DNA of 64,000 bases from an uncultured bacterium (GTDB lineage: Bacteria > Vulcanimicrobiota > CADAWZ01). The notes beneath the pieces are model-generated. The model searched no databases. It saw only the letters and a program-made list of their open reading frames with translations, and was not told the DNA's origin. Positions 7,943-54,086 of this stretch are shown here, one piece after another; within the stretch, counting starts at the first letter, position 1; the number at the start of each line of letters is the position of its first letter. The position numbers and the translations under genes are program-made. The DNA lies in contig CADASF010000005.1 in NCBI GenBank assembly GCA_902790465.1, positions 148,622 through 212,621 on the forward strand, in the 5' to 3' direction.

Positions 7943-8102
7943 AACAAATCCTCCAATCAATATTTAAAAAACTTTCTATGGTTGAATTATATCACCTTAG
8001 AATCTAAAAAAAAACTATTTTTTATTAATAAAAAGTAAATAATGTAAATTTTTCGTTAATTTTTTAAAATAATTATTTACATTAAAATTAAAGATATTTA
8101 AT

Positions 8103-9356: not shown

Positions 9357-9423
9357 TTTGCCCCCTCTTCTGTCTAATTTTTGGATAGTCTGAAATTGTC
9401 ATTAGTCATGGTTAAAAACTGCT

Positions 9424-10689: not shown

Positions 10690-10708
10690 TTAATCACCTT
10701 TTTTAGTA

Positions 10709-11287
10709 CTATTTTTTTGTGGACTTAGTCCACTTGATTTCTAATTTAGAATTTTCTTTAGCTATTTTTTCTGCATATCCAAAATTTATATTATTGGAAT
10801 ATAAGCAATAAACTTTTTTATGAATATTTGTTTTAGATATAATTTCAGAATTGATTCCTATATCATCTTTGATCTGCTCAGCAAAATCTTCTGCTTCTTG
10901 CTGAGAAACAAATTCTTTTTCTATTTTTATTTCATTTGAATTCTCAGAAGAGGAAATCATACTTATATTATAATTGTTATCTGCAAAATATTTTTTAGCA
11001 TATTTAAAATGTTTTTTTCCGATATTTGCTTTTAGATAATAAATAGGTTTTCCATAAATATCTTCCAATGTTACTTTTGTCTCTTTATTGCCTTCAAAAT
11101 ACATAGTTTGTAATTTTGTTAATTGTTTTTTGTCAGAGGAATATATTTTTATGGTTCCAAGCTCATTTTTATTTTTAGAAAAATTGGCAGTTTTTATCCA
11201 ATTAACAAAATTATATCCTACATTTAGAATTAGGCATAAAGAGAAAAAAACTATAAAAAATCGTCTTAAAAATACAGGTAAATTCAT
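10709..11287 (-). CDS. Hypothetical membrane-anchored protein
   Basis: It has an N-terminal TM/signal anchor. The C-terminal region is weakly SPOR-like and I could not confirm it. Confidence 0.45.
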   Translation of the reverse strand: MNLPVFLRRFFIVFFSLCLILNVGYNFVNWIKTANFSKNKNELGTIKIYSSDKKQLTKLQTMYFEGNKETKVTLEDIYGKPIYYLKANIGKKHFKYAKKYFADNNYNISMISSSENSNEIKIEKEFVSQQEAEDFAEQIKDDIGINSEIISKTNIHKKVYCLYSNNINFGYAEKIAKENSKLEIKWTKSTKK

Positions 11288-11306
11288 TTTTTTTATCCTT
11301 TAAATA

Positions 11307-12668: not shown

Positions 12669-12673
12669 AATTA

Positions 12674-13363
12674 TTAAATATTGGCAGTTGAAATTCTTCC
12701 TTCATCAAGATAATAAACTTTATCAGCATAAGCGGCAACTTTTGAATCATGAGTAACCATTACAGTTGTTACTCCTTGTTGTCTATTTACTATTTTTAAC
12801 ATATCCATAACTTCTCTTGTACTTTTTGAATCTAGATTTCCAGTAGGCTCATCTGCAAGTAAAAGCCCTGGATTATTGACAAGAGCTCTAGCTGTTGACA
12901 CTCTCTGCCTTTGTCCTCCAGATAATTTTGCAGTATCAGAATTCCATTTTGCTTCCATTCCAACGAGTTCAAGCATTTTCATTGCTCTTTCTTCTTGTTT
13001 TCCTACAAATGAATTTGCAAGTTGCATAGGAAGCATGACATTTTCTAATACAGATAATGTTGGAATAAGATAATAATTTTGAAAAATGAAACCTATATGT
13101 TCCAGTCTTATTTCTTCTCTTATATTTTCAGGAATTGTACATATATCTGTATTATCAAGATATATTTCTCCAAAATTTGGTTTATCTATACAGCCTAAAA
13201 GATGTAAAAAAGTCGATTTTCCTGTTCCAGAAGGTCCCATGATTGCAATAAATTCTTTATCTGCAATATCGAGATTTACATTTTCTAAAACTCTTATTTT
13301 TCCAAATTCGCCTTCCCAATATTTATAAATTCCCTTCATTCTAATTCTCATATTATCCTTCAC
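12674..13363 (-). CDS. ABC transporter ATP-binding protein (MacB/LolD family)
   Basis: It carries Walker A GPSGTGKST, the LSGGQRQRVSTARAL signature, Walker B LLADEPTGNLD and an H-loop VMVTHD. Confidence 0.85.
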   Translation of the reverse strand: MKDNMRIRMKGIYKYWEGEFGKIRVLENVNLDIADKEFIAIMGPSGTGKSTFLHLLGCIDKPNFGEIYLDNTDICTIPENIREEIRLEHIGFIFQNYYLIPTLSVLENVMLPMQLANSFVGKQEERAMKMLELVGMEAKWNSDTAKLSGGQRQRVSTARALVNNPGLLLADEPTGNLDSKSTREVMDMLKIVNRQQGVTTVMVTHDSKVAAYADKVYYLDEGRISTANI

Positions 13364-14728
13364 CTACATATCCCATTTTAATGCTTTTATTATTTCAATT
13401 CTATATACAATTATAATCGGAATCAATGCTCCGACAATTCCAATGAAAACGGAGAGTAGCATTGCATATAATATCAACGCAGGCGTTATGTTTGCCATTG
13501 GAAATGAAATTTGAAATAGTGCTTTTACAGCGTCATCTAAAAATGCGGATCCAATGATACCAACAATGATTCCAGCTATCCCTCCTATGACAGACAAAAT
13601 CAGTGATTCAATAAGGATCATTGAGGCTATTACCGATCTATTTGCTCCTATTGCTCGCAATGCACCAAATTCTCTTATTCTTTCAAATGTTGACATCAAC
13701 ATTGTATTCATAGAAGCTGTTGTTGCAATCAAAATTCCAATTAATGCAATAGCGAACTGCATGAACCAAGCATATTTTACAATTTCGCCAGAAGCTCCTA
13801 AATATTCTTCACTTGTTTTGAATTCAAAATTTGGAAAATAATATTTTAAGAGTCTTTTAGTTTCTTTTATTTTAGACTTATTTTCTACTTGTATCCATAT
13901 TTCTTTTACTTTACCATCAGAACCATTTATTGTTAATGCAGTTTGAATAGGCATGTAACAGAAATAATCTTGAAATCCAGAATTAAAAGATACTATTGCT
14001 TCAGGTTTTAACAACAAGTCACTACTGCTTTTCATGGAAATTTTGCCATTTTTATCTATAATATCTTTTAAATTTAATTCTTCAGCTATTTTTTGACCTG
14101 ATATGAAAACTTTTTCTTCATTTGAAAGGTCGGATATTTCTTTTTTTTCTAAACAATATATGTCGTTATATTGTTTAGTTTCAACTGGAAATACACCATT
14201 TTGAACTCTCATGCCATTTAAATATAAACTAAATAGTGGAGTTCCATCATCTGCAGTTCCAAAAGGCAAACCCCAAAATACAACATTTCTTCCCCTAATC
14301 TTTTTTTGGAATCGTGTAACACCTATTGCAGATTTTATGTTTGGAACTTTTTGGTTTCCTTCTTCATCTATGTTTAGAAAATCTATTAAATTACCTCTTA
14401 CTTTTTTTATTTTATTTATATCAACTCTATTATTTACCTGTTCTAAACTTATTGGACTTTTGGGAAGTTCTTGATCTAGATTAATATCTTCATAGTCAGC
14501 TCCAAGAGCTCCTATTGAGCCTGTTGGCAGAGAAACAACTCCAGATGGAGTAACATAAATGTCAACATTTTTGCTCATTACTTCACTTGTTAATTTTTTA
14601 TTGAGTCCTTCAGCAATAGAAAGTAAAGCCACAAAACTACCAACAGCGAGTATTACACCGATTATAGTCAAAAGGCTTCTTTCTTGTTTTCTTATTATAT
14701 TTTTTTTGGCGAGAGAAAATGCAATCAC
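13364..14728 (-). CDS. ABC transporter permease, FtsX/MacB-like, with a large periplasmic domain
   Basis: It has an N-terminal TM helix, a ~250-aa extracytoplasmic domain and three C-terminal TM helices in FtsX topology. It lies immediately upstream of the ATPase with adjacent stop and start. Confidence 0.7.
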   Translation of the reverse strand: MIAFSLAKKNIIRKQERSLLTIIGVILAVGSFVALLSIAEGLNKKLTSEVMSKNVDIYVTPSGVVSLPTGSIGALGADYEDINLDQELPKSPISLEQVNNRVDINKIKKVRGNLIDFLNIDEEGNQKVPNIKSAIGVTRFQKKIRGRNVVFWGLPFGTADDGTPLFSLYLNGMRVQNGVFPVETKQYNDIYCLEKKEISDLSNEEKVFISGQKIAEELNLKDIIDKNGKISMKSSSDLLLKPEAIVSFNSGFQDYFCYMPIQTALTINGSDGKVKEIWIQVENKSKIKETKRLLKYYFPNFEFKTSEEYLGASGEIVKYAWFMQFAIALIGILIATTASMNTMLMSTFERIREFGALRAIGANRSVIASMILIESLILSVIGGIAGIIVGIIGSAFLDDAVKALFQISFPMANITPALILYAMLLSVFIGIVGALIPIIIVYRIEIIKALKWDM

Positions 14729-14830
14729 GATTATTTCCTTTTCCGAAATATTATAGTTTAAAACAAAGGGAAAACATTAATTTCAATAGAAGTTTAAAAA
14801 TAAAAAAATATTATTATTTACAAATAAATT

Positions 14831-17800
14831 ATGAATGATCAAAAATTTGATACAAATGAGTCTAATGCCTCCTTATCTCCAGAAAAAGAGAAAAAAAATT
14901 TTTTTTCAAGGGTTGGAGATACAGTTTCGCTTTTCTTTACAAAAGATACAAATAAAGCGATTGAAACTATAATTGATCCTGAAGCTCCGCTCTTTCAGAG
15001 AACTGCAGCAATAAAAAGTGCTGTTGTAAAAAGAAATTTGGATGCTCGAATTCCACTTATAGAAGTTGTAAAAGGCGAATACGGAGCAAATGAAGAGCTT
15101 CGCATACAAGCTGCCAAAGCACTATCTGATATTGGAGATGTATATGCCACAGACATAAAATCTTCATATTTGATAGATTTGCTTGAAATTTATCTAACAA
15201 CTATAGATAATAAATTGAGCAAAGAAATTGGCATAATTTTTCTAAAAGCAGAAGGACTTCCATATATAAAATTTATTGGAAAGACTCTTATAACAAGATT
15301 CCAAATTGATGATGATGTAAGCTCTGATGCTTGGCAGATTTTTGCGAGAGCATTAGCTTTCTCGTATGAATTTGCATTAAATGAAAATATAGAAAAAATA
15401 AGAGCTGAATTAAACAGTTTACCACAAAATATAAATAAACAAGTTCAAGTAATTGAACATGGTGCTTATTTTGTTAGAAGAATTATTAATATTCTTGATG
15501 ATTCTAGAAAAACCCTTTGTGATTATATGGCTAAAGATCCAAATGGTCAAAAATTATCAGAATTATTGATGTATCCTTCTCTTACATCTACATATCATGA
15601 AAATTCGGCAGAATTGGTTAAACATATAACTTCCATATTTGATTTTGTTCTCCATGACAAAAAAGAACTTAGAGATTTGGCAATATCTGAACTCAGAACA
15701 ATAGAGACTCCAATAGTATATGATTCTTGTAAAACACTTATCATGGACCCAGCCCCACGTTATCCTGATATATGTGAGGGATTGACTGGAGTTATAACAG
15801 AAGCGATATCGAGAGGCGATATTCTTGCAAGAAATATATTTATTTCTATGGCAAATAATCCTCCTGTTTATTGTGAAGCTTTCTTTTATTCTGAAGTAGT
15901 TAGGTTATCCAAATTAGATGAAGAATTTCATGCCAAGATGATTTCTGTTACAAAAGGATTTATAAAGCGTTCAGAAGCAAGTGATAAAGTTATAATATCA
16001 ATGCTAAGATCCGTTTTTTCTTTTAATTTGACAGAAGAAAATCTTGAATTTTTGATTTATCTTGTAACAGGAAAAGTAAAAGTTTCTATAGATGTTGCTG
16101 TTGAAACAGTTTCTCTTTTGGTACACTTAAATAAAGAAGATTTTCCATTCTACGACAAAATTTCAAAAATTTTAAAACTTTCATTGCAAAATAAAGTCCC
16201 AGATGAAATTAAATCGAGAATTATTTCAGAATCAAAAAATAATATAACAGATACAAGTTTGTCATGCCTTGAAATTGCTGCTTTTTTAGACACTCCAACA
16301 GTATCAGCAGAAGCAATAAGAGCAGTTTTTGATGTAGCAAGAAGTGGAGACATGAAATCTGATAGATTTATTGCTTTTCTGTGTAAAATGTTGAGTGATG
16401 AGAAAGTTCTTAGAGATAATATATCTCTATCTCTTGCATTTTTGAAAAATTACAAATATAGAAATTCTGCTTTGAGAGATGAAATAGCAAAATTATTGTC
16501 ATCAAATGATCAAAATTTCAGATTTGATGCTTTGATTTTGTCTTCAAAATGGCTAAAAAATTCTGAAGATGAGGATGAATTTATTCAACAACTAAAAATG
16601 TTTGTTGGCATAATACAAAATCCAGAATGGAAACACAATGATATATATCAAAAAGTATTAGATTTATTTGAGTCATTTATTTTATCTGAAGAAGAAAAAT
16701 ACAAAAAAATACAAAATTTCTTACTAAACTCAATAAGAAGTGCTTTAGGTGCTAAAATACAAGATAATTATAAAATTGCTATTTGTAGAATGTTTGAAAG
16801 CATTCTGAAAAAGGGAAATGATGATATATCTCAAAAAGCAATGATTCTGCTTGAAGATGTTATTTCTTCTAAGGATATTTCTACCGCTGTTAAATTACAT
16901 GCAATAGAATATTTTGCTGTTGATAGAGGAGAAATTGTACATATTTTACCTCAAGTTGTAACTGCTCTTAAAGATGAGAATTATGACAATAAAAGTGGAA
17001 TTTTGCTAATTTTAGTAAAAGCACTTGACAAAGTTAAAAAATATACAATTAAAGAAAAAATTAATGCACTAAAACAGGGGCAACCTGTTGAAATATGTGA
17101 GCATGTCAAATTTGAGATACTCATGGGAATGGAGATATGCCCAATATTAAATGATCTTTTAAAACTCAATTTCATGAATAGGGAATTAGTTCAAAGTGCA
17201 TTGACTCTTGCAAAATATATGGATTATGCAAGAACATTTGTAAAGTTTATTTTTGAATTTACTAATTATCCTGAAGATGAGATAATAAGAGCAAGGGCTA
17301 TAGAAACTGTTGGTGCTTTGATATATCCTCCATATACGCAAGATGAGGGTGAAATATTATTGAGCATAATGAAGACTGCAAAAGATAATAAACAACCTCA
17401 ACATATGAGAAGAGCTGCTATTTTAGCACTTGAAAAAATAGCGGATCCTGCTTTTGAAGATGTATTGAGTGAAATAGCTCTCGATAGTAAAACAAAAGAA
17501 GATTTGAGAATTTTGACAATAAATGCATTGTCTTCATTGTGTGATGAACATGTAAATGGTACATACAAAACGATATTAAAAGACCCAAATGCTTCTTGGT
17601 TAATAAAAGAATCAATAGTGAAAGTTCTAAATGATTCAATAACTTTTGATATGATTGATACCATGATTGATTTAATGACAAATGCTCCAGGAACAGTTTT
17701 TAAAAATCAAATAGCAGATGCAATGAAGGCAAGTGGATTTGAGAATGTGGTAAGAATAAAAGAATTAGATACAGCCTGTGCAAATGATATGAATAAATTA

Positions 17801-44059: not shown

Positions 44060-44097
44060 TCAAAAAAATATAGATTAGAACTTGAAGAAATGCAATA

Positions 44098-44137
44098 AAA
44101 AGACTCGGTACTAAATTAGCACCGAGTCTTTTGGTTT
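44098..44137 (+). terminator. Rho-independent terminator after the 42953 gene
   Basis: AGACTCGGT-actaaattagc-ACCGAGTCT is followed by TTTTGGTTT. Confidence 0.75.
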
Positions 44138-44179
44138 GAGGCTAAGGTCTGATTCCATATGGATCACCTCTTTTTCACT

Positions 44180-44761
44180 TTAGAATCCGAAAAAGCTACC
44201 TATTTTTTTGAAAATAGATTTTGCACCATTTACTACTTTGCCACCTACTTTTTCTATAACTCCGCTGGCTACTTTTCCTACAACTCCACCTGCTAAATTT
44301 CCAACTATACCACCGATAGGACCACCTATTGCTCCGCCAATTACTGTTCCTATGCCTTTACCTACTGCTGTTCCAGCTTCGCCACTGATTTTTCCTAATA
44401 TGCCTTTACTTTTTTCTGATTTTTTTGCTTCTTTTGTTTTGTCAGTATGTACTTCATTTGCTTTGTTTTCTTTAACCGCAGGAGCTATATTTTTGTTTGC
44501 TTCAAATTGTGGAAATGCTGGCATTTGTTGCATTGCTCCAACTCCATTTATTCTCCAAGCCTGTCCACCCATTTGTTGAATCATTTGCATTGTCTGCATT
44601 TGCATCATAATTTGTTGCATTTGTATCATCATTTGTTGCATTTGCATATACTGCATATTTCCAAAACCGTAGTTGTAATTGTAGTTCATTCCGTAATTGG
44701 AATTTCCATTATAAAAATTGCTGTAGTACATTACATTTGAATATATAATTTGGTTATTCAT
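44180..44761 (-). CDS. Hypothetical protein: N/Y-rich then M/Q-rich low-complexity N-terminus, with a C-terminal glycine-zipper segment
   Basis: It has a GGAGG RBS (reverse strand). NFYNGNSNYGMNYNYNYGFG is followed by MQYMQMQQMMIQMQQ. The C-terminal zipper reads GKGIGTVIGGAIGGPIGGIVGNLAGGVVGKV. Confidence 0.5.
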   Translation of the reverse strand: MNNQIIYSNVMYYSNFYNGNSNYGMNYNYNYGFGNMQYMQMQQMMIQMQQIMMQMQTMQMIQQMGGQAWRINGVGAMQQMPAFPQFEANKNIAPAVKENKANEVHTDKTKEAKKSEKSKGILGKISGEAGTAVGKGIGTVIGGAIGGPIGGIVGNLAGGVVGKVASGVIEKVGGKVVNGAKSIFKKIGSFFGF

Positions 44762-45212
44762 AATCTTAAACCTCCAAAAAAAATATTTATTTTCTTGTTT
44801 TTTATATCACTTAAAATTTCAATTAGTAAATAGGTTTAGTGAATAATTTATGCTCTATTTCACGATTGCAATAAATTAAATAATGATTTTTTTCACAAAT
44901 GTAATATTTAATAATTTTTATTATATTTTGATATATTTTTGAAATATTTATTAATAATTTTTCTGTAAATTCTATTTTTATTAAGTCAGAAATTAAACAA
45001 TTTGTCTGTGAAATAGAAATAATTATTTGATTACAGAATTAATTAAAAATAATGGATGATTCTCACAGAATGACAATAGATGCTCACAAAACAAAATATT
45101 TTTTTATTCCAAAAATTTATCAAGATATTTCTGGAAACATAAACAAAGGGGCAAGAAATAATAAATTGGTATGTAATCCAATGCGTGAAAGATGATAAAA
45201 AGACAACATAAA

Positions 45213-45253
45213 AAGGCTCGGTACTTAGTTAATAGCACCGAGCCTTTTAGTTT
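45213..45253. terminator. Bidirectional terminator downstream of the PKS-like gene (similar in sequence to the 44098 terminator)
   Basis: AAGGCTCGGT-acttagttaatagc-ACCGAGCCTT is followed by TTTAGTTT. On the reverse strand a T-run follows. Confidence 0.7.
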
Positions 45254-45263: not shown

Positions 45264-48200
45264 TTACATCATCTTTAATGCGAAGTTGGAGAATTTGTAG
45301 ATATTTCTGCCATCGACTGAAAGCCAGCCGTCACAGATAATTACTTTGTCATCATTTGATTTTGAAGTTACCCAAACTCTGACTGTTACCAAATCATCTT
45401 TTGGGATTACCTGTCCTCTATATGTCCACAAATGTTTACATTCACATAATGGAGAGATAAATCCCTCTGATTTCTCCGCTTCTTTACTCCAGAATTTTAT
45501 TGACATATACTTCATCAATGAAATCATTGATTCAAGACCGAGTGATCCAGGTATTACTGGATCCTGATAGAAATGAGCTTTGAAGAACCAATCTGAAGGT
45601 CTTACTTTCATAGTTCCTTCAATATAGCCCAATCCTTTTGGACCGCCATGTGGTGCAAAAACTGTTATATTATCTATCATTTTTAACATAGATTTTGGCA
45701 ATATCCTATGTTCTGGATATATAATATTTCGTTCTGAATCTTTGTCATTGCCTACAGGCGGAATCTTTGCGTCCAATATACCTATTTGATTTTTTAGTGC
45801 CTCTTTTGAGAAGAAGCCAAAATATGTCCAACCTTTATATACACTTCCTATTTCATCATAGACATCAAAGAAGTAATTTTGAATGACCATTCCTGCCGAT
45901 TTTGAGACTGTTTCAAGTTTTACATCTGTATGTAATATCTTTGTGTTTTTGTTTACAGGTCTTTCAAGATGACCATAACCACCTAAATTTCTAAATGACA
46001 GATCAAAATTTTCGGTAAGTGCAGAACCGACATAGGCAGCAAGCCAACCGCAAGGCTGAAGTGCAACTTCAAGAAGTACAGAAAATGGCATTAATGATGA
46101 AGAACTCTGTTCAAAATACCATTCATTACCATTCATATCATATTGAGCAGAGGCTGATGCAGGAGTTTTCATTACCCATTGTTCACCTGCTACTTTTACG
46201 ATTCTGTCAAGGAATTTATATGGATCGCCTGGTAATCTTGCGATTATTCTGTCTTTGTCAAATACTGCATATTTACTGCCAAATGCTTCTGAAGGATTGC
46301 CAATAGCAAATGCAGTTATCGAGGCATTGTCAAAAACTGGAGTTTGTGGAGTTTTGCCAACATTTTTAATATTTCGCCATATCTTTTCCAAGCGTTCTTT
46401 AGATGAACCTTTTAACTGAATTGACATATTCAGCATTTCGACAATAGGTTTTCCATCTGCAAACATCAAGGCATCTGCTATTGCATAAGGATATGGATTA
46501 TAGCCAATTTCTTTTATTGAGATTCTAAAAGATGATTTTTTAGTTGATTCTATGACTTGACCTCTACATTTTAGAGAGCTTGAAACTCCCTGTATTGGCT
46601 CCCAAACAGTGTCTTTAGCTGAATCAATCCAACCAGCTCTCATCAAGAAAATTCTGAGTGTGTGCATGCAACATTCATACATCAATGTACCTGGCATGAC
46701 ATTGTCATCTGAGAAGTGGCATGTCAAGAACCAGTCATCTGGATGGATATCGAGTTCAGATTCAATGCTTCCTATTCCAAATCTGCCACCCGTTGGATTT
46801 AGGTTAATAACCCTGTCGAGAAGTTTCATGTATTTATGTCTTGGTAATGTCAATGGGTCTTCACAGTCCATATAATCAAAAGACGATCCAAAACATGCAG
46901 AAATTTTGCCTTTTCTCAATTCGGCTATTTCGGTATCTGCATAAGATTCTTCATACATTGGGACAAATGGTTTAAAGCCGTCTTTTATCAGTCCTTTTTC
47001 AGGGCGTAAGTCAAGGGCTGTGTGGATAATTCCTTTGCCTTCGTCAAGTTGTTGTTGTGTGAAGAAGCCTGCACAGCCATTTGTCATTGACATCAATTTT
47101 TTAGTGCCGACAAAACTTTCAAAATTGAAGTAGAACAGCCAAACCGATCCTTGTGTAAAGAATCTTTCAATATTTATTTCATATCTTATCGTTTCACCGA
47201 CTTTTGGAAGGTGATCATGGAATTGAATCGAGGCATTTAACAATCTATAGACAGCAAGACCTTTTGTCTTTTTGTCAATACCCAACCAGCCAGATAAAAA
47301 TAGATCAGATTGACCCGCTTCAACAGCAACACAAGTTGGAATAATGCCATTGTCCAAATACCAAGCATTTTCTTTTATATCATGTTCTGTAACTGTTGAA
47401 CCTGATGTCAGAGAAAGTGGTTCACCAGAAACACTTAAGATCCTATCCGCAAGCATTAATGGCTCATCAGGAAGTCTTACTCTTGTTGGATAGCTATCTA
47501 TCTCCTCAAACATTTTACCCAAAACTTTACCAATAGACCCTGTGGCAAACTCCATGCATGCCTCTCTATCCATAAATATCTTTTTGTCGCTTGCGTTCTT
47601 ATCTCTGCGATCGATTTTGTCTCTGCTACTTGTTTGGTAATTGCCATCTACAAAGTTTTTCTCTTGGCTTGCGTTCTTATCTCTGCGATCGATTTCGTTT
47701 TGGCTAACTTTTTCATAACTGCCATATACATTATTTTCTTTTTGGCTCTCTTGCTTATTTCTGCGATCGACATTGCCAAGATATATATTTTGTGAAATTT
47801 CTGTTGGGCAATCCAAAACAAGGGAAATCAAATCTTGTGAGAAGTTCAAATATTCGCCATGAGCTTCTGCCGTCTTCTGTTCCATTTCAAATATTCTTTT
47901 TAGTACGCTATTTGCTGTTTCTGTAGTTTGGCTAATTTCAATTTGTGGCATTTTTTCTTTGCTCTCTTGTTTGTATATGCTACCTAATTCGTTTTGAGTT
48001 ACTTCTTTGTCTCTAAAATTTATAAAGTTTTCTCTATGCTCGTTGTTAATATTTTGTGATATTACAGGCTTACTTTCTTTTTCTTTACTTAATTTATTGT
48101 CTCTTTGCTCTATTGTTTTACTGGAATTTGTCTTTTTTGAATTGTATTCAGAACTTTTTTCACTAAAAGCTCTTTTTGATAGAGAAATTTTCATCAGATT

Positions 48201-51200
48201 TGATTTTTTAGTTTCTTTAAAATCTCTGTCAAAAAGATTCAATTTTTCAAAATCTATTCCATTTACAAAAAGAACAGCACACATATTTAAGAATGTATCT
48301 ATTTCAGAAAATCCAGCTTTTGTCGCATATACAGCAAGATGAGGTTTTTCTGACAAAATGGAATCTATCATTCTTGTACAAGAACAACTTGGACCGACTT
48401 CTATAAATACTCTTATTCCGTCTTTCCAAGCCTGTTCTATGACTGCAGGGAAATCTATTGTATAAGAAGCCTGGTTTAATATTGTGTCAGCTATATTGTC
48501 TGATGTTATATCATAACTTTTCTTTAATGCCGTACTGTAAAAAGTTATATTATTTGGATTTTCTGCAGGGAAGTAGTGAAGATCTCTGTATTTCTGAGCA
48601 ACAGGTTTTAAAACTTCACAATGAACAGAAGTTACACCTTCAATAGGAATTATCGTACATTTTAGTTCTTCTGCACATTTCTCTACTTCTTTTCTCTCTC
48701 CGCCAATAACACAATCTTCATAAGTATTTATTATAAGGAGATATACTCTGTCATATTTTTCTATGACTTTTTGAGCTTTCTTGTAATTACAAGCGATAAC
48801 AGCTGTAAGCCAATCGACTTTTTCATTTTCAGGTATATTCCAAACTTTTTTGGCGGAATTATATTCACCTGCTAAGTCATCTATAAAGAGAGATGATGAA
48901 TTTAATCTATCCATCATTTCATCTCTTGAATGCCAAATTCTAAGTGCTGTTATTCCTGCCATTTCTCCGAGAGAATAGCCAATAGAGGCATTTGGCTTTA
49001 TTCCCAAATTTGCCACACAATCAGAGGCAATAGATGACATAGCTGTTTGACCTTGAAGGAGTGCAGGGTGATTATTTGAAACATCATCTAAATTTTCTTT
49101 TGTCCAAAAATAATTTGGCAAAATTTGATCTTTCAATCTCAAATTTTCTTCATTTTCATTATACATGACATTTGGGAATCTTAGAGCAAGCTCTTTTCCC
49201 ATTCCTGCATAATGGTTGCCTGAACCTGGAAATACAAATGCTATTTTTCCTTTTTCTGCAAATTTTCCGTCATTGTATGTAAGACCTTCCGTGTGTTCAG
49301 GGAATGTATTTGCAATTTTCTTAAATTCTGCAAAGTCTTTTGCCAAAATACTTGCTCTGAATATATCTTTGTCAGTATCTTTTTCTCTATTTTTTTCAAG
49401 ATATAGTGCAGATTGTGAAAAAGTTAAATCTGTTTCTGACAAAAATTTTAATGCAGAATCTATTTTTTGTTTTAAATCTTCTTCATTTTTAGAGGCAAAG
49501 AAGAATATCTCTTTATTTTGGAAATTGTGTAGGTGTTCAGGCTCACAAGGTGGCTCTGAAATATCTATTTTTATGCCTCTATTTGTTATTGATGAAAAAG
49601 AGGTTGCAGAATCTGTTATTTTGCCTTCAATTCTGTTTGAAAGTCTATATGTTTTACTTATAGGCTCGAATCTGTCTTTTATGAAAAGGCATTTTTCAAC
49701 AAGTTCCAAAGCACCATTTTTCTCTTGGCTCTCTTTTTCGTCTCTGCGATCGACTTTGTCTAAGCTACTTGTTTGATAATTACCATTTACAAAGTTTTTC
49801 TCTTGGCTCTCTTTTTCGTCTCTTGGTGAGATTTTAGAAACATTGTCAATTACAGCATATATTTTGTTTTTATCTCTTACTGCGTCATCATATCTTTTTA
49901 AAACAAAACAAACAGATGTATCAAAGAATTTGTCATTTCTTTTTGACATCATATTTTTACAGAAAGTAAATCTGTCATCAGAGGCAATATCTGTACAACC
50001 TGCAATGACTACATCTGTTTCAAAATTTACAAGTGAGTCAAAAGCGAGTGATACTGCTTCTAAGCCTCCGTTTTCAGATTCAGAAACAGTGTGTGAGGTT
50101 TTGCCAAAGCCAAATTCTCTCGCTATTCTGCTTGCAGTTATACTACCCAATGCCCCCATTGTTCTATTTGCATTTAATGGCTCTGAAAAGACTTTGTCTC
50201 CAGTTCTCCATGATACATAGAAATCTGTTGTTGAAAAATCAAAATTGATTCCGATAAAAACTCCGCCTTTTGCATATTCTTCTTTTTTGATGTCAGCGTC
50301 AGACATTGCAGAAATTGCAGAAAGAAGCATTGCTTTTTGTTGTGGAAGTGATTCATCAAGCTCTTTTGGAGGAATTTTTATTTTTCCAAATGGTATTTGT
50401 GTATCTTCAAATGTTCTTTTTGAAGGATATTTTCCCTCGGCTCTCATTTTTTCAAATTCATAGGCATTATTTACATTGCCAACTCTCACATCAATTCCGA
50501 CTACAGCTACTTTCTTATCATTTTTTTGTGGATTGAGAGCTTTTTTATTTTCATAAAGTTCTTTTTTAAATTCTTCAATTATTACATGTGCATTTATTCC
50601 ACCAAAACCAAATGCACTTACAGCCACTCTTTTTGTTTTTGAATCCCATTTTTCAGCTTTTGTTGGAACAAAAAATGGAGAATTTTCTATATCTATTGAT
50701 GGTGTTGAATAATTTGCAATAGGTGGCAAAATGCCCTTTTGCATTGAAAGTAAAACCTTTACAAGTCCTGCACCACCTGCACCTGTCAAAAGGTGTCCTA
50801 TATTGGATTTTACACTACCAAGTGCAGATTTTTTGTTTTCTCTCTTACAATTAAATTCAGAAAATAGCTTGCATAGGCTTCCAAATTCAACTTTATCACC
50901 TGCAGGTGTTCCTGTTGCATGGCATTCAAATAAATCTATGTCAGAGGGGAGAAGATTTGCCTGTTCGTAAGCCTCTTTCATTGCTCTTAATTGACCCTCT
51001 TGCGAAGGCATTAAAAGGCTTCCTTCTCTGTCATTTGAAAGACCAACTGCTTTTATAACTCCGTATATTTTGTCTCCGTCTTTTATTGCATCTTCAACTC
51101 TTTTTAAACAGATGATTCCTGCACCTTCACCTGTAACAAGCCCTTTGCCTTTTTTGTCAAATGGGGCACATATTCCGTCTGTAGAAAGTGCTGATAATTG

Positions 51201-51872
51201 AGTAAATCCTATTGATGTGTACATGCAGTCAGGTCTTGAAACTCCACCTGCAAGCATTAGATCGGCTTTTCCTTCAACAAGGCGATCGCATGCGAGTTTT
51301 ACTGCATAGAGTGAAGAAGCACATGCTGCGTCAAGTGTGAATGATTCACCTTCAGCTCCTATTGTTTTTGCCAAAAATGAGGCTGTGTGTGAATTTACAA
51401 GTGAATTTATTGGATTTGTAGAAATATTTTTGCAATCAGATAAAGCCAAATCAAAAGATATTTGTTCTGATGTCTCCGTAGGAAGTGCGATACTTCCCAA
51501 AATAACTCCTACCTTGTCAGCTGATATTGATGATGAATTGCATTCTTTAAATGCTGATTTTCCTGCTATTGCTGTTATTTTAAATACTGGATCGAGATTG
51601 TCGTCTTCAATTCCATATTTAGAACATAATTTTTGTATTGTATCTTCAGAGATAAATGCTCCTATATCTGTAAATGCTTTGTTTGGTGTTTTTACTTCAG
51701 ATATTACCGAAGATGAATCAAGTATCCATCTATTTTTAGGTGCATGTTTAAATGCATATTTTCCATTTTCTATCATATCCCAAAAATCTTTGAGGTCTTC
51801 ACATTCTGGGAAAAGTCCACCAATTCCAACTATTGCTATGTCGTAACTACTCTTTTTCATATCTATTTCCAT
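45264..51872 (-). CDS. PUFA-synthase-like (PfaB/PfaC-type) polyketide megasynthase: KS - CLF - AT - FabA-like DH - FabA-like DH (2202 aa)
   Basis: The KS domain has DAACASS (active Cys ~184), HATGTPAGD and GHLLTGAG. The second KS-like domain lacks the Cys (SESENGG), marking it as a chain-length factor. The AT domain has GYSLGE. Two C-terminal FabA-type DH domains follow (HPDDWFLTCHF...GTLMYE; PSDWFFKAHF...GSLGLE). No DSL ACP motif, no KR and no ER are present. Confidence 0.8.
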   Translation of the reverse strand: MEIDMKKSSYDIAIVGIGGLFPECEDLKDFWDMIENGKYAFKHAPKNRWILDSSSVISEVKTPNKAFTDIGAFISEDTIQKLCSKYGIEDDNLDPVFKITAIAGKSAFKECNSSSISADKVGVILGSIALPTETSEQISFDLALSDCKNISTNPINSLVNSHTASFLAKTIGAEGESFTLDAACASSLYAVKLACDRLVEGKADLMLAGGVSRPDCMYTSIGFTQLSALSTDGICAPFDKKGKGLVTGEGAGIICLKRVEDAIKDGDKIYGVIKAVGLSNDREGSLLMPSQEGQLRAMKEAYEQANLLPSDIDLFECHATGTPAGDKVEFGSLCKLFSEFNCKRENKKSALGSVKSNIGHLLTGAGGAGLVKVLLSMQKGILPPIANYSTPSIDIENSPFFVPTKAEKWDSKTKRVAVSAFGFGGINAHVIIEEFKKELYENKKALNPQKNDKKVAVVGIDVRVGNVNNAYEFEKMRAEGKYPSKRTFEDTQIPFGKIKIPPKELDESLPQQKAMLLSAISAMSDADIKKEEYAKGGVFIGINFDFSTTDFYVSWRTGDKVFSEPLNANRTMGALGSITASRIAREFGFGKTSHTVSESENGGLEAVSLAFDSLVNFETDVVIAGCTDIASDDRFTFCKNMMSKRNDKFFDTSVCFVLKRYDDAVRDKNKIYAVIDNVSKISPRDEKESQEKNFVNGNYQTSSLDKVDRRDEKESQEKNGALELVEKCLFIKDRFEPISKTYRLSNRIEGKITDSATSFSSITNRGIKIDISEPPCEPEHLHNFQNKEIFFFASKNEEDLKQKIDSALKFLSETDLTFSQSALYLEKNREKDTDKDIFRASILAKDFAEFKKIANTFPEHTEGLTYNDGKFAEKGKIAFVFPGSGNHYAGMGKELALRFPNVMYNENEENLRLKDQILPNYFWTKENLDDVSNNHPALLQGQTAMSSIASDCVANLGIKPNASIGYSLGEMAGITALRIWHSRDEMMDRLNSSSLFIDDLAGEYNSAKKVWNIPENEKVDWLTAVIACNYKKAQKVIEKYDRVYLLIINTYEDCVIGGERKEVEKCAEELKCTIIPIEGVTSVHCEVLKPVAQKYRDLHYFPAENPNNITFYSTALKKSYDITSDNIADTILNQASYTIDFPAVIEQAWKDGIRVFIEVGPSCSCTRMIDSILSEKPHLAVYATKAGFSEIDTFLNMCAVLFVNGIDFEKLNLFDRDFKETKKSNLMKISLSKRAFSEKSSEYNSKKTNSSKTIEQRDNKLSKEKESKPVISQNINNEHRENFINFRDKEVTQNELGSIYKQESKEKMPQIEISQTTETANSVLKRIFEMEQKTAEAHGEYLNFSQDLISLVLDCPTEISQNIYLGNVDRRNKQESQKENNVYGSYEKVSQNEIDRRDKNASQEKNFVDGNYQTSSRDKIDRRDKNASDKKIFMDREACMEFATGSIGKVLGKMFEEIDSYPTRVRLPDEPLMLADRILSVSGEPLSLTSGSTVTEHDIKENAWYLDNGIIPTCVAVEAGQSDLFLSGWLGIDKKTKGLAVYRLLNASIQFHDHLPKVGETIRYEINIERFFTQGSVWLFYFNFESFVGTKKLMSMTNGCAGFFTQQQLDEGKGIIHTALDLRPEKGLIKDGFKPFVPMYEESYADTEIAELRKGKISACFGSSFDYMDCEDPLTLPRHKYMKLLDRVINLNPTGGRFGIGSIESELDIHPDDWFLTCHFSDDNVMPGTLMYECCMHTLRIFLMRAGWIDSAKDTVWEPIQGVSSSLKCRGQVIESTKKSSFRISIKEIGYNPYPYAIADALMFADGKPIVEMLNMSIQLKGSSKERLEKIWRNIKNVGKTPQTPVFDNASITAFAIGNPSEAFGSKYAVFDKDRIIARLPGDPYKFLDRIVKVAGEQWVMKTPASASAQYDMNGNEWYFEQSSSSLMPFSVLLEVALQPCGWLAAYVGSALTENFDLSFRNLGGYGHLERPVNKNTKILHTDVKLETVSKSAGMVIQNYFFDVYDEIGSVYKGWTYFGFFSKEALKNQIGILDAKIPPVGNDKDSERNIIYPEHRILPKSMLKMIDNITVFAPHGGPKGLGYIEGTMKVRPSDWFFKAHFYQDPVIPGSLGLESMISLMKYMSIKFWSKEAEKSEGFISPLCECKHLWTYRGQVIPKDDLVTVRVWVTSKSNDDKVIICDGWLSVDGRNIYKFSNFALKMM

Positions 51873-52076: not shown

Positions 52077-53855
52077 ATGAATACAATAAATCCAAATATG
52101 CGTATGTTTTCAACAGATAGCATACAGCAAGTAAATACTCCTCAGACAGCAAAGACAGAAGCTGTTAAAACTCCAGAAACTCCACAACAGGAGATTAGAG
52201 AGACTGCAGACCTCTCTTCTGGAAAGCCTGCAAAAGATTTAAATGCAGAAAAATTGAGAAATTTTGCTGCTACACAAGCTGTAACAACAAGTAGTGAAGT
52301 AGAAGCACTACCTACTACTTCAGAAGTTGCAGATATGGCACTCAGTACAAGTATTCAGACAGCAGGATCAATGGTTCCTTCTACCGCTGGTACTACAATA
52401 AGATTGCTTTTTACAGATGATCTTCATGGTGCTATATTCTCAAGTCCAATGTGGGGAAGACCTGATGTTGAGCAGGGCGGAATGTCAATGCTCAAAACAG
52501 CAATAGACGAAAATAAAAATGATGCTACACTTGTTTTAGATGCAGGTGATTGGGCTCAGGGAACATATCCTGGTGGAATGGACAAAGGTGTTACAGTCGT
52601 AGATCTCATGGGAAAATTGGGATATGACGCAGCTGCAGTAGGAAATCATGAGTTTGATTGGGGAAGAGACCAGTTAACACAATTGGCCCAGCAAGCTACA
52701 TTTGATGTTTTGGGAGCAAATGTTCTCGCAAGTGAAACAGGTGAAGTAATGCCAGGTGTTGCTCCACATACAATAAAAGTTGTAAATGGCGTAAAAGTTG
52801 GACTTATCGGTGTAACAACACAGGATACCCCAGAACTTGGTGCTAAGAGCAATACTGAAGGGGTCGTATTTGCAGATACAGCAGATAGCATTAAAAAATC
52901 TATTCCTGAACTAAAGAAACAAGGTGCAGAAGTTCTCGTGCTTCTCTCACACTGTGCAACAGGTGAAGACCAAAAAATAGCAGAAGCAGTTCCAGAGCTT
53001 GATGTAATAATTGGTGGTCATGACCATGAAAAATTGGATGAACCTATAGTTATTGGAAAAACAATTATAACAAAAGCAGGTCCACATGCAAGGACATTGG
53101 GACAACTCGATTTGGTCGTTGATAAAGAACAAAAGCAAGTAACATCTTTTGAACATAAACTCCATACTATAGATTCAGAACATGTAAAACCAAATGCTGA
53201 ATTTGATCAAGTTCTCTCTCCTATTTCTAAAAGAGTTGATCAAATAATGGGTGTAAAAGTTGGTTCAAGCACAGTAGGAATCACAAGAGATAAATTTACA
53301 CCAGAGTCAACAGCAGGAAATTTAGTTACTGATTCTATGATAGATGCCACAGGAGCAGACATTGCATTTTTGAATACAGGTGCAATGAAAAAGGCAATAG
53401 ATAAAGGCGAAATAAAATTTGGTGATGTGTTTAATTTACTTCCTTATGATAACCAGATTGTAACTGTTGACATGACAGGTGAATCGATAATGAAAGTTCT
53501 TGAACATAGTGCAGGAAATGCTGATACTATACCTGAAAAAGGTTCAACAAATATAATTCAATTTGCAGGTTTAAGAGCTACATTTGATCCAAGTCAACCT
53601 AAAGGTCATAGAGTAAGTAATGTAACTGTTGGTGGACAGCCACTCGATTTAAATAGAACTTACAGTGTTGCTTCTATTGATTATTTAGTATCAGATAGCA
53701 ATGAATTTCCAGCAATGCATGAAGCAACAAATAAACAGGTTACAGAATTTGAATTGAGAGATACTGTTCACAAATTTATACAGAAAAATTCACCACTTGA
53801 TGAGTCAACAGTAAAAATTGATGGTCGTCAAGGTTGGACAAGTATCCCTAAATAG
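52077..53855 (+). CDS. Bifunctional metallophosphatase / 5'-nucleotidase (UshA-like) with ~100-aa Thr/Ala/Gln-rich N-terminal linker
   Basis: It has calcineurin-like motifs (DLHG, GDWAQG, GNHEFD) and a C-terminal 5'-nucleotidase domain. No N-terminal signal peptide is evident. Confidence 0.75.
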   Translation: MNTINPNMRMFSTDSIQQVNTPQTAKTEAVKTPETPQQEIRETADLSSGKPAKDLNAEKLRNFAATQAVTTSSEVEALPTTSEVADMALSTSIQTAGSMVPSTAGTTIRLLFTDDLHGAIFSSPMWGRPDVEQGGMSMLKTAIDENKNDATLVLDAGDWAQGTYPGGMDKGVTVVDLMGKLGYDAAAVGNHEFDWGRDQLTQLAQQATFDVLGANVLASETGEVMPGVAPHTIKVVNGVKVGLIGVTTQDTPELGAKSNTEGVVFADTADSIKKSIPELKKQGAEVLVLLSHCATGEDQKIAEAVPELDVIIGGHDHEKLDEPIVIGKTIITKAGPHARTLGQLDLVVDKEQKQVTSFEHKLHTIDSEHVKPNAEFDQVLSPISKRVDQIMGVKVGSSTVGITRDKFTPESTAGNLVTDSMIDATGADIAFLNTGAMKKAIDKGEIKFGDVFNLLPYDNQIVTVDMTGESIMKVLEHSAGNADTIPEKGSTNIIQFAGLRATFDPSQPKGHRVSNVTVGGQPLDLNRTYSVASIDYLVSDSNEFPAMHEATNKQVTEFELRDTVHKFIQKNSPLDESTVKIDGRQGWTSIPK

Positions 53856-53984: not shown

Positions 53985-54059
53985 CGGGGTGTAGCGCAGC
54001 TTGGCTAGCGCATCTGGTTTGGGACCAGGGGGTCGGAGGTTCGAATCCTCTCACCCCGA
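53985..54059 (+). tRNA. tRNA-Pro (anticodon TGG)
   Basis: Hand fold: acceptor CGGGGTG/CACCCCG, anticodon loop TTTGGGA, T-loop TTCGAAT. Confidence 0.8.
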
Positions 54060-54086
54060 CTTCAGTCTTAAAAGCCTGGAATCAAT

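What the first reader, a model, noticed from the sequence alone, without database searches (positions are those of the whole stretch)
45264..51872. Stand-alone PUFA-synthase-like megasynthase (KS-CLF-AT-DH-DH) without ACP, KR or ER partners
A 2202-aa protein combines PfaB-like (AT) and PfaC-like modules (KS, chain-length factor, two FabA-type dehydratases) in a single chain. There is no phosphopantetheine-binding DSL motif. No pfaA, pfaD or pfaE-like genes are in the 64 kb: the flanking genes are a prion-like protein and a 5'-nucleotidase. In established pfa systems (Shewanella pfaABCD; thraustochytrid subunits A, B and C), these domains act on an ACP-rich PfaA and need an enoyl reductase. An isolated fused B/C-type subunit in a small AT-rich genome is therefore unusual. 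It suggests either a trans-acting carrier or reductase encoded elsewhere or a non-PUFA lipid product. Two interdomain linkers contain short tandem ~21-aa repeats (DRRDKNASQEKNFV[DN]GNYQTSS), encoded by TCTCTGCGATCGA-containing DNA repeats at about 47560-47790 and 49735-49830. The gene is bracketed by two sequence-similar bidirectional terminators (44098, 45213), consistent with insertion as a module.
Basis: partly seen in the sequence, partly recalled or inferred. Interest (0 to 1): 0.75.

Follow-up and report, generated by a model that had tools for sequence, protein, structure and literature searches.

The report
Orphaned PfaBC subunit in rumen Xenobia
This 6.6-kb gene is a real and still-functional "PfaBC" subunit of a polyunsaturated-lipid/hydrocarbon synthase, left without its usual partner genes when its operon broke up in a rumen bacterium (Candidatus Xenobia); the protein type is common, and only its isolation and a shortened CLF domain are unusual.

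Summary
The ORF (45264-51872, minus strand) is real. It encodes KS-CLF-AT-DH-DH with all catalytic motifs intact and no ACP, KR or ER. No pfaA, pfaD, pfaE, ole or ACP gene lies anywhere in the 64 kb, in any frame. The fused B/C architecture is not unusual: it is the pfaBC fusion of Shulse & Allen 2011, and more than 7,900 homologues were found.

Related loci show a stepwise operon break-up:
- A free-living Eremiobacterota MAG has pfaD-pfaA-pfaBC-oleABCD-PPTase.
- Closer relatives have pfaBC-oleABCD-PPTase, one with the same 5'-nucleotidase neighbour as the window.
- The AT-rich rumen genus has pfaBC alone, and a sister species carries oleABCD-PPTase at an unlinked site.

The window contains that sister-species site, and the ole operon is not there.

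The orphan gene is under strong purifying selection (dN/dS about 0.1; DH domains 0.03-0.06) and has host-like GC. Its CLF lacks about 60-100 residues of its C-terminal half, yet still models as a PfaC-type KS-CLF didomain.

The two similar hairpins do not bracket the megasynthase. They bracket a 193-aa ORF cassette that is absent in a 99.4%-identical strain.

Most likely the protein works in trans with partners encoded elsewhere. I could not test whether pfaA/pfaD exist in the genome.

The parts
45264..51872 (-). pfaBC-type megasynthase ORF (2202 codons from the first ATG; the likely real start is the ATG at 51860, giving 2198 aa)
   Evidence: Orthologs: P0001 100%, L003 94%, P0002 91%, P0003 90%. 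dN/dS is about 0.10-0.14.
50538..51842 (-). KS domain (aa 11-445), with the DAACASS motif at aa 181 (Cys184), His318 and His360
   Evidence: Pfam ketoacyl-synt, Ketoacyl-synt_C and KAsynt_C_assoc. The motifs are conserved across the family. dN/dS 0.065.
49548..50510 (-). Chain-length-factor domain (aa about 455-775). It has no active-site Cys, and its C-terminal half is shortened by about 60-100 aa relative to the family.
   Evidence: Second Pfam ketoacyl-synt stretch. Weak sequence match to the CLF part of 6riw. AF2 model of aa 1-800: pLDDT 85.7, pTM 0.90. Best fold match is the 6riw PfaC KS-CLF, TMq 0.80. Truncation measured.
49728..49834 (.). Dispersed copy of the 78-nt repeat. It encodes a disordered insert (aa about 683-718) at the CLF deletion site.
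   Evidence: pLDDT is 25-45 for aa 688-717. The insert length differs between orthologs.
48318..49259 (-). PfaB-like acyltransferase domain (aa about 872-1185), with GYSLGE at aa 965
   Evidence: TIGR02816 PfaB family 98.8 bits, below the 144.3 cutoff. The best PDB match is 9ry8 'PfaBs', E 1.5e-22. The motif is conserved.
47493..48302 (-). Low-complexity AT-DH linker (aa 1191-1460). It contains the tandem 78-nt repeats at 47589-47773.
   Evidence: TRF: period 78, 2.3 copies. dN/dS 0.25-0.34. Copy number varies among orthologs.
46383..47492 (-). DH1 region (aa 1461-1830): a FabA-type hotdog with catalytic His1719 (CHF...D..PG)
   Evidence: Pfam FabA and NCBIfam FabA at aa 1675-1821. PDB FabA hits. 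Motif. dN/dS 0.03.
45267..46382 (-). DH2 region (aa 1831-2202): a FabA-type hotdog with catalytic His2100 (AHF...D..PG)
   Evidence: Pfam FabA best stretch at aa 2058-2194. Motif. dN/dS 0.04-0.06.
45211..45248 (-). Terminator-like hairpin 16 nt downstream of the pfaBC stop codon
44098..44132 (-). Second hairpin, with a near-identical stem. Together with the first it flanks the strain-variable cassette.
44133..45207 (-). Cassette of about 1.1 kb between the two hairpins, carrying the 193-aa Q/N/M- and Gly-rich ORF (44180-44761). It is not part of the synthase.
   Evidence: Absent in L001, which is 99.4% identical in nucleotide sequence to the window and has a single hairpin there.
52077..53855 (+). 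Divergent 5'-nucleotidase, the conserved ancestral neighbour of pfaBC
   Evidence: Pfam. L008 has the same arrangement; the proteins are 45% identical over their full length.
8095..17696 (.). Block (radical SAM, Rho, two unknown ORFs, ABC, FtsX, HEAT protein) that in the sister species is followed directly by oleABCD-PPTase. In the window synteny ends at 8095 and no ole genes follow.

Best explanation
The gene encodes the PfaBC-type subunit (KS, reduced CLF, PfaB-like AT, two FabA-like dehydratase/isomerase domains) of an Eremiobacterota pfa/ole pathway. Related Type I clusters are thought to supply polyunsaturated acyl chains that OleABCD condenses head-to-head into long polyolefins.

In the lineage leading to this rumen Candidatus Xenobia bacterium the ancestral operon pfaD-pfaA-pfaBC-oleABCD-PPTase was taken apart. 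First pfaD and pfaA left the locus. Then, in the AT-rich rumen genus, oleABCD-PPTase left it too. pfaBC stayed at its ancestral position beside the 5'-nucleotidase gene.

The protein is still functional. Because it has no carrier, ketoreductase or enoyl reductase of its own, it must act in trans on acyl chains held by a phosphopantetheinylated carrier encoded elsewhere. The KS/CLF pair would do specific elongations, the AT would load or off-load, and the FabA-like DH domains would set cis double bonds. The most probable partners are unlinked PfaA/PfaD homologues. An unlinked oleABCD-PPTase operon is the likely downstream consumer.

Shown here: identity, architecture, intact active sites, purifying selection, and the synteny series. 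Inferred: that partners exist elsewhere in this genome, and what the product is.
For: Architecture and family:
- Domain assignments from Pfam, NCBIfam and PDB.
- The AF2 model of aa 1-800 (pTM 0.90) matches the PfaC KS-CLF structure 6riw across both domains (TMq 0.80). All other hits cover only the KS half, with TMq at most 0.49.

Synteny series:
- L006 (Eremiobacterota MAG): ER, then KS-AT-3xACP-KR-DH, then pfaBC, oleA-D and a PPTase.
- L009: a PfaA C-terminus (KR-DH) lies directly upstream of pfaBC-oleABCD-PPTase.
- L008, L005, L004 and L002: pfaBC-oleABCD-PPTase with no pfaA or pfaD in the sequence visible upstream, which ranges from 0.8 to 10 kb.
- L008 shares the divergent 5'-nucleotidase neighbour with the window.
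- The window, L016/L017 and L007 have pfaBC alone.

Unlinked ole operon:
- L012-L015 (GC 29-30%) carry oleABCD plus an intact Sfp-type PPTase next to a block that is 80-86% identical in nucleotide sequence to window 8095-17696.
- Two of these ole loci come from the same metagenome assemblies as orphan pfaBC loci: ERZ28634014 holds L013 and L016, and ERZ919319 holds L014 and L007.

Functionality:
- dN/dS is 0.10-0.14 overall, 0.065 for KS and 0.03-0.06 for the DH regions.
- All catalytic motifs are conserved.
- GC and GC3 are host-like.

Literature: the pfaBC fusion and the pfa-ole linkage are published, and Geobacter bemidjiensis (Type I cluster) makes hentriacontanonaene, C31H46 (PMC3098273; PMC6463001).
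Against: - No pfaA, pfaD, ACP, KR, ER, PPTase or ole gene lies in the 64 kb.
- None lies within the flanking sequence visible (up to 10 kb per side) at any of about eight loci of the gut clade.
- A search seeded with the nearest available PfaA fragment returned no close hit (best 44% identity) and no AT-rich hit. PfaA in this genus is therefore undemonstrated.
- In the window the site where the sister species has oleABCD-PPTase lacks it. This species may have lost ole altogether. The only candidate for a relocated copy is L010 (GC 30.8%, a different upstream gene), and it is not tied to this genome.
- The CLF is partly deleted.
Confidence: 0.6

Rival explanations
1. PfaA-independent exaptation. 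The gut and rumen Xenobia have really lost PfaA and PfaD. PfaBC now works on the housekeeping type II FAS carrier (AcpP), with FabG and an enoyl reductase in trans. It would act as a FabA/FabB-like anaerobic unsaturation and elongation module, supplying cis-unsaturated acyl chains for membranes and, where ole genes are present, for olefins.
For: - No pfaA or pfaD is adjacent in any of about eight loci of the clade, and none was detected by the homologue search.
- The FabA-like DH regions are the most constrained parts of the protein (dN/dS 0.03-0.06), against 0.18 for CLF and 0.10-0.12 for AT.
- The CLF is eroded in this clade.
- Published complementation shows that FabA-like DH domains of PUFA synthases can replace E. 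coli FabA, so they can use type II ACP substrates (PMC9667614).
- Pfa domains can substitute for FAS II functions in vivo: the PfaA MAT domain replaces FabD (PMC8174602).
Against: - L009 has the same truncated CLF together with an adjacent PfaA, so the truncation does not signal loss of PfaA.
- An intact Sfp-type PPTase, the usual activator of PfaA ACPs, is retained with the ole operon throughout the clade.
- KS and AT are also under strong constraint.
- Failure to find PfaA here is uninformative, because only 10-kb flanks and the top 120 hits could be examined.
Confidence: 0.25
2. A decaying relic. The gene is a non-functional leftover of a lost pathway that has not yet accumulated stop codons.
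For: - Its partner genes are gone from the locus.
- The CLF has an internal deletion.
- One ortholog contig (L007/P0003) has an in-frame 20-aa deletion that removes the KS active-site Cys.
Against: - A 6.6-kb ORF is intact in all four sequenced versions (window, L001, L003, L007), with dS of 0.27-0.36 between the divergent pairs and dN/dS of 0.10-0.14.
- All catalytic motifs are kept.
- The L007 deletion sits exactly at a jump in identity (87% before it, 98.4% after it) relative to L016, so that scaffold may be chimeric. P0002, the representative of the 19-member cluster of the same species, keeps the Cys.
Confidence: 0.03
3. A recently inserted mobile module. The megasynthase arrived by horizontal transfer as a cassette bracketed by two similar terminators.
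For: Two similar hairpins lie nearby. Shulse & Allen infer horizontal transfer for pfa-like clusters in general.
Against: - Both hairpins lie 3' of the gene. The segment they bracket (44133-45207) is the piece that is present or absent between strains.
- The gene keeps the ancestral 5'-nucleotidase neighbour.
- Its closest relatives outside the genus carry the same operon layout as the Eremiobacterota MAG locus.
- GC and GC3 are host-like.
Confidence: 0.02

Closest known systems
[quoted passage not shown]
   Same: It has the same single-chain KS-CLF-AT-DH2 architecture. Geobacter and Geomonas proteins are full-length hits of about 1830-1870 bits. In the Eremiobacterota relative the gene sits in a pfaD-pfaA-pfaBC-oleABCD-PPTase operon, which fits the proposed role of feeding olefin synthesis.
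   Different: Here pfaA, pfaD, ole and the PPTase are not at the locus or anywhere in the 64 kb. The CLF lacks about 60-100 residues of its C-terminal half. Low-complexity repeat inserts are present. The host is an AT-rich rumen anaerobe of a different phylum.
Canonical PfaB plus PfaC of marine Gammaproteobacteria (Shewanella, Moritella, Photobacterium pfaABCDE)
   Same: The best structural match of aa 1-800 is the Moritella PfaC KS-CLF structure 6riw. The best PDB match of the AT region is a PfaB (9ry8). There are two FabA-like DH domains. In Shewanella the pfa and ole loci are unlinked but cooperate (PMC6463001).
   Different: PfaB and PfaC are separate proteins there and are always accompanied by pfaA, pfaD and pfaE. 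Here the two are fused, the CLF is shortened, and no partners are nearby.
Myxobacterial Pfa3 (KS-CLF-AT-DH-DH-AGPAT) and thraustochytrid PUFA synthase subunits B and C (from my own knowledge; not tested here)
   Same: They have the same order of KS, CLF, AT and FabA-type DH domains.
   Different: Those proteins carry extra AGPAT or ER domains and sit beside an ACP-rich subunit.
E. coli FabA/FabB (type II anaerobic unsaturated fatty-acid synthesis)
   Same: The DH regions match FabA models and structures and keep the catalytic His/Asp-type motif. PUFA-synthase DH domains can complement fabA(Ts) (PMC9667614).
   Different: This is a functional analogy only. Here the domains are part of a 2200-aa type I chain with its own KS/CLF and AT.

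Membership tests
PfaBC fusion subunit of pfa-like secondary lipid (PUFA-type) synthases | N-terminal KS with a Cys-His-His catalytic triad | tested here: met
   DAACASS at aa 181 (Cys184), HATGT (His318) and GHLL (His360). Pfam KS N- and C-terminal domains score E 4e-60 and 1e-32.
PfaBC fusion subunit of pfa-like secondary lipid (PUFA-type) synthases | A second KS-like domain without the active-site Cys (CLF), packed against the KS | tested here: met
   Second ketoacyl-synt stretch. The Cys position is occupied by Ser/Glu (SESE), as in the rest of the family. The AF2 model has pTM 0.90 and matches the 6riw KS-CLF with TMq 0.80. Caveat: the C-terminal half is about 60-100 aa shorter than in most family members.
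PfaBC fusion subunit of pfa-like secondary lipid (PUFA-type) synthases | PfaB-like acyltransferase with a GxSxG motif | tested here: met
   GYSLGE at aa 965. The best PDB hit is PfaB 9ry8, E 1.5e-22. TIGR02816 scores 98.8 bits, below its 144.3 cutoff, and Pfam Acyl_transf_1 scores 30.5, below 32.7, so the AT is divergent.
PfaBC fusion subunit of pfa-like secondary lipid (PUFA-type) synthases | Two C-terminal FabA-type dehydratase/isomerase domains with a catalytic His | tested here: met
   Pfam FabA E 5.8e-74 with 3 stretches. CHFSDDNVMPG (aa 1718) and AHFYQDPVIPG (aa 2099) are conserved across the family.
Complete pfa gene cluster (pfaA-E or pfaD/pfaA/pfaBC types) | An ACP-bearing PfaA (KS-MAT-ACPn-KR), a PfaD enoyl reductase and a PfaE PPTase encoded with pfaBC | tested here: not met
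   None in the 64-kb window by Pfam, tblastn or the ACP HMM. They are present in relatives L006 and L009.
Complete pfa gene cluster (pfaA-E or pfaD/pfaA/pfaBC types) | The same partner genes present anywhere in the genome | not testable with these tools
   Only the window and flanks of up to 10 kb around related loci could be read. The PfaA-seeded homologue search was uninformative.
pfa-ole polyolefin (head-to-head hydrocarbon) system | oleABCD present and linked or co-occurring with the pfa genes | tested here: inconclusive
   oleABCD is directly downstream of pfaBC in L002, L004, L005, L006, L008, L009 and L011. It is unlinked in the sister species (L012-L015). It is absent from the window, including at the syntenic site. 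Its status in the rest of this genome is unknown.

The most novel reading that the evidence does not exclude
Rumen and gut Xenobia have discarded PfaA and PfaD altogether. They keep a 2200-aa KS-CLF'-AT-DH-DH protein as a free-standing, trans-acting module that works on the type II FAS carrier protein. This would be a type I-derived replacement for FabA/FabB that installs cis double bonds anaerobically, and in some species feeds OleABCD. It would be the first PUFA-synthase subunit shown to function without its ACP-bearing partner.
Probability: 0.22. Interest if true: 0.7.

Novelty: new variant of a known kind. Interest (0 to 1): 0.4.

Why it matters
PUFA-type synthases are thought to work only as complete multi-subunit assemblies built around the ACP-rich PfaA. 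Here a PfaBC subunit has been kept under strong purifying selection across several rumen species, after its operon partners left the locus and after part of its CLF was deleted.

There are two possibilities. The pathway may tolerate full dispersal of its genes, which is a caution for cluster-based genome mining. Or the subunit may have acquired a PfaA-independent role with the housekeeping fatty-acid synthase, which would be a new mode of anaerobic unsaturated-lipid synthesis.

The graded series of loci (full operon, then pfaBC-ole-PPTase, then pfaBC alone) also gives a natural dissection of the pfa/ole pathway in an uncultured, host-associated phylum. A whole-genome check could reduce this to an ordinary split locus.

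Tried and rejected
- PfaA elsewhere in the genus. The last homologue search was seeded with the KR-DH fragment of the L009 PfaA. All 120 listed hits are 37-44% identical and none comes from an AT-rich genome (highest FYMINK/GARP ratio 0.90, against 1.62 for the window protein). The result is uninformative, not evidence of absence.
- Remnants of ole, pfaA, pfaD or PPTase genes in the window. tblastn with proteins from five related loci, including the 80-86%-identical sister species, found none.
- A cryptic ACP in the protein or anywhere in the window. The custom HMM found none.
- Horizontal-transfer signature. GC and GC3 are unremarkable.
- Hairpins as a dispersed REP-like family. The stem motif occurs only at these two sites in the 64 kb.
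- KS inactivation in one ortholog (P0003/L007). The 20-aa deletion coincides with a switch from 87% to 98.4% identity relative to L016, and the flanks on both sides differ. It is probably a recombinant or chimeric scaffold, so I gave it no weight.
- CLF truncation as a marker of PfaA loss. Rejected, because L009 has both the truncation and an adjacent PfaA.
- L010 as the relocated ole operon of the window species. Its GC (30.8%) and divergence from L012/L013 (89% nucleotide identity) fit, but nothing ties it to this genome.
- The genome-contig scan returned only one locus, a 7-kb contig of ruminal_MAG_271. It gave the taxonomy but no wider context.

Full report
**1. What is in the sequence**

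The minus strand of 45264-51872 is one uninterrupted ORF of 2202 codons. Pfam and NCBIfam place a complete ketosynthase at aa 11-445 and a second ketoacyl-synthase-like stretch after it. A weak PfaB-like acyltransferase follows at about aa 872-1185 (TIGR02816, 98.8 bits, below its cutoff). FabA-type dehydratase matches lie at about aa 1675-1821 and 2058-2194.

Against solved structures, the N-terminus matches the Moritella PfaC KS-CLF entry 6riw. The AT region matches a PfaB (9ry8, E 1.5e-22) ahead of FabD enzymes. The C-terminus matches FabA.

The catalytic motifs are all present and conserved across 34 family members:
- KS: DAACASS at aa 181, with His318 and His360.
- AT: GYSLGE at aa 965.
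- DH1: CHF...D..PG at aa 1718.
- DH2: AHF...D..PG at aa 2099.

No PP-binding domain is detected. An HMM I built from 146 PfaA ACP segments finds nothing in any frame of the 64 kb (best E 0.52). It recovers the three ACPs of a control PfaA at about 1e-35 each.

Pfam annotation of 40 other ORFs in the window shows housekeeping genes: PFK, Rho, MurC-like, GlgB, trigger factor, ClpP, ClpX and others. There is no KR, ER, PPTase, ACP or ole gene.

**2. Details that needed correction**

The repeats are real. A 78-nt (26-aa) unit occurs 2.3 times in tandem at 47589-47773, and once more at 49728-49834.
- The tandem array lies in the AT-DH linker. That linker evolves fastest (dN/dS 0.25-0.34) and differs in length between orthologs.
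- The other copy lies inside the CLF domain, not in an interdomain linker.

The two terminator-like hairpins (44098-44132 and 45211-45248) have nearly identical stems and occur nowhere else in the window. Both are downstream of the gene. A contig from a strain 99.4% identical to the window (L001) has one hairpin and lacks window 44133-45207, which carries the 193-aa Q/N/M/G-rich ORF. The rumen MAG contig L003 lacks the whole of 41051-45207. The "module" defined by the hairpins is therefore the small ORF, not the megasynthase.

The megasynthase has a GC of 0.348 and a GC3 of 0.235. Other genes in the window average 0.318 +/- 0.038 and 0.183 +/- 0.035, so nothing suggests recent acquisition.

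**3. Organism and family**

The only GTDB representative genome with a close copy (94% aa) is "Candidatus Xenobia bacterium ruminal_MAG_271" of the phylum Eremiobacterota.

The protein search found more than 7,900 homologues. The 120 best listed are all about 2,100-2,400 aa with the same Pfam content. They come from Geobacter/Geomonas, Desulfuromonadales, Brocadiae, Uabimicrobium, Eremiobacterota and others.

This is the published "pfaBC fusion [KS-CLF-AT-DH2]" of secondary-lipid-synthase types C, D, H and I. The Type I clusters of Geobacter and Gemmata were proposed to feed OleABCD olefin synthesis, and G. bemidjiensis makes hentriacontanonaene (C31H46) (PMC3098273; the pfa-ole linkage was shown experimentally in PMC6463001). 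The fused architecture is therefore common, not unusual.

**4. Where the gene comes from: a graded series of loci**

- *L006* (P0011, 44% identity, free-living-type Eremiobacterota MAG, GC 59%) has ER (PfaD-like), then KS-AT-3xACP-KR-DH (PfaA-like), then pfaBC, oleA, oleB, oleC, oleD and an Sfp-type PPTase.
- *L009* (P0010, 45%) has a PfaA C-terminus directly upstream of pfaBC-oleABCD-PPTase.
- *L008, L004, L005 and L002* (P0004, P0005, P0009 and P0007; 50-56% identity, GC 37-48%) have pfaBC-oleABCD-PPTase. No pfaA or pfaD appears in the sequence visible upstream.
- *L008* also has the same divergent 5'-nucleotidase neighbour as the window; the proteins are 45% identical over their full length.
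- *The AT-rich rumen genus* (GC 29-32%) has pfaBC alone. This holds in the window, in L016/L017 (between HD-domain/ValRS genes and PGI/GlgB) and in L007.

tblastn finds no remnants of any partner gene in the window.

**5. The ole operon in this genus**

An OleA search seeded from L008 found a cluster of AT-rich OleA proteins. Their long contigs (L012-L015, GC 29-30%) carry oleABCD plus an intact Sfp-type PPTase. The operon sits immediately after a block of HEAT protein, FtsX, ABC, two unknown ORFs, Rho and a radical SAM gene.

That block is syntenic with window 17696-8095 at 80-86% nucleotide identity. Synteny stops exactly after the radical SAM gene, and the window has no ole genes there.

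Two of the ole contigs come from the same assemblies as orphan pfaBC contigs: ERZ28634014 holds L013 and L016, and ERZ919319 holds L014 and L007. The sister species therefore very probably has pfaBC and oleABCD-PPTase at unlinked sites.

A third arrangement exists in L010 (GC 30.8%, 89% nucleotide identity to L012/L013). There an RNase II/R-like gene precedes oleA. It could belong to the window species, but I could not tie it to this genome.

**6. Is the orphan gene functional?**

Four orthologs were compared: the window, L001, L003 and L007.
- dS reaches 0.27-0.36 between the divergent pairs, and overall dN/dS is 0.10-0.14.
- By region, dN/dS is 0.065 for KS, 0.18 for CLF, 0.10-0.12 for AT, 0.03 for DH1 and 0.04-0.06 for DH2.

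This excludes a decaying relic.

One contig (L007/P0003) has an in-frame 20-aa deletion that removes the KS cysteine. The deletion sits exactly where identity to L016 jumps from 87% to 98.4%, and both flanks differ, so the scaffold is probably recombinant or chimeric. P0002, the representative of the 19-member cluster of that species, keeps the Cys.

**7. A structural variant: the shortened CLF**

I measured the distance between two conserved anchors in the CLF: the LKRxxDA motif at the end of its N-terminal half, and the LRNR motif.
- The window protein and P0001-P0010 have 39-86 residues between them.
- P0013-P0120 have a median of 142, and P0011 has 135.

The missing part corresponds to the segment that carries the two catalytic His residues in a true KS. 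In the window the gap is partly filled by the repeat insert.

An AlphaFold2 model of aa 1-800 is nonetheless confident (pLDDT 85.7, pTM 0.90), and only aa 688-717 are disordered. Its best PDB match is the PfaC KS-CLF didomain 6riw over both domains (TMq 0.80). Every other hit covers only the KS half, with TMq at most 0.49.

L009 has both the truncation and an adjacent PfaA. The truncation therefore predates the loss of pfaA adjacency and is not a marker of it.

**8. How it most likely works**

*Shown:* this is a PfaBC subunit with active-looking KS, AT and two FabA-type DH domains, a reduced CLF, and no carrier or reductase. It is conserved by selection and sits at an ancestral locus from which pfaD/pfaA, and later oleABCD-PPTase, were removed.

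*Inferred:* the protein must act in trans on acyl chains bound to a carrier encoded elsewhere.

I consider unlinked PfaA/PfaD homologues the most likely partners (about 0.6). The reasons are these:
- KS, AT and DH are all constrained.
- The Sfp-type PPTase that normally activates PfaA ACPs is retained with the ole operon across the clade.
- Split or partial arrangements are documented: pfa and ole genes can be unlinked, and one cluster type (Type J) consists of pfaD and pfaA alone.

The main rival (about 0.25) is that PfaA and PfaD are really gone and the protein now uses the type II FAS carrier, FabG and an enoyl reductase. It would then serve as a FabA/FabB-like anaerobic unsaturation module. 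Supporting points are that the DH domains are the most constrained regions, and that PUFA-synthase DH domains complement E. coli fabA(Ts) (PMC9667614).

I could not discriminate between these two readings.

**9. Verdict**

The protein belongs to a well-known and very large family. What is new is a clade-specific variant (shortened CLF, repeat inserts) that survives as an orphan in rumen Xenobia after stepwise operon break-up.

It is of moderate interest. A whole-genome check for pfaA/pfaD would either reduce it to an ordinary split locus or make it a notable case of a PUFA-synthase subunit working without its ACP partner.

Noticed in passing
window 44098-45248: A cassette of about 1.1 kb carries a 193-aa ORF with a Q/N/M/Y-rich N-terminus and a Gly-rich C-terminus (no Pfam hit). 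It is flanked by two near-identical 35-38-nt hairpins. The cassette is absent, leaving a single hairpin, in a strain 99.4% identical to the window (L001). This suggests gain or loss by recombination between the hairpins.
   Followed up: partly
window 41051-45207: A segment of about 4.1 kb holds two paralogous DUF6273 proteins (41210-41809 and 42953-44059, 45% identical; the second also has a Big_2 domain) plus the cassette. The whole segment is missing in ruminal_MAG_271 (L003), where the pfaBC terminator abuts the glgB upstream region. The 3' flank of pfaBC is a hotspot for variable insertions.
   Followed up: partly
window 6591-8102: Synteny with the sister species ends at 8095. That species has oleABCD-PPTase at this point. 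The window instead has two paralogous Q/G/M-rich ORFs (6591-7202 and 7295-7960, 40% identical, no Pfam hit, GTG and TTG starts), followed by a glutamate dehydrogenase gene.
   Followed up: partly
L007 6998/6999 (P0003, ERZ919319 scaffold_7304): An in-frame 60-nt deletion removes the KS active-site motif TLDAACASSLYAVKLACDRL. It sits exactly at a switch from 87% to 98.4% nucleotide identity relative to L016, and the flanking genes differ on both sides. The scaffold is either a real recombinant allele with a dead KS or an assembly chimera.
   Followed up: partly
window 53985-54767: A cluster of eight tRNA genes (Pro, Arg, His, Lys-UUU, Lys-CUU, Leu, and two Gly-GCC) lies between the 5'-nucleotidase gene and the trigger factor-ClpP-ClpX genes.
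   Followed up: no
window 31756-36487: Four consecutive minus-strand ORFs of 333-375 aa have no Pfam hits. The first two (31756-32883 and 32900-34027) are tandem paralogs, 75% identical.
   Followed up: no
window 1922-3427: A single ORF fuses a transaldolase domain (TAL_FSA) with ribose-5-phosphate isomerase B (LacAB_rpiB).
   Followed up: no
window 14831-23171: A 1203-aa HEAT-repeat protein is followed by a caspase-like (Peptidase_C14) protein, a nucleotidyltransferase, an APH-family kinase and a second HEAT-repeat protein of 562 aa. The function of this group is unclear.
   Followed up: no
L002 7437-9849: In the gut-clade MAG GCA_031551355.1, two radical SAM genes (one with a BATS domain) lie directly upstream of pfaBC-oleABCD-PPTase. 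A radical SAM gene also precedes the unlinked ole operon in L012-L015. The link to the pathway is possible but untested.
   Followed up: no
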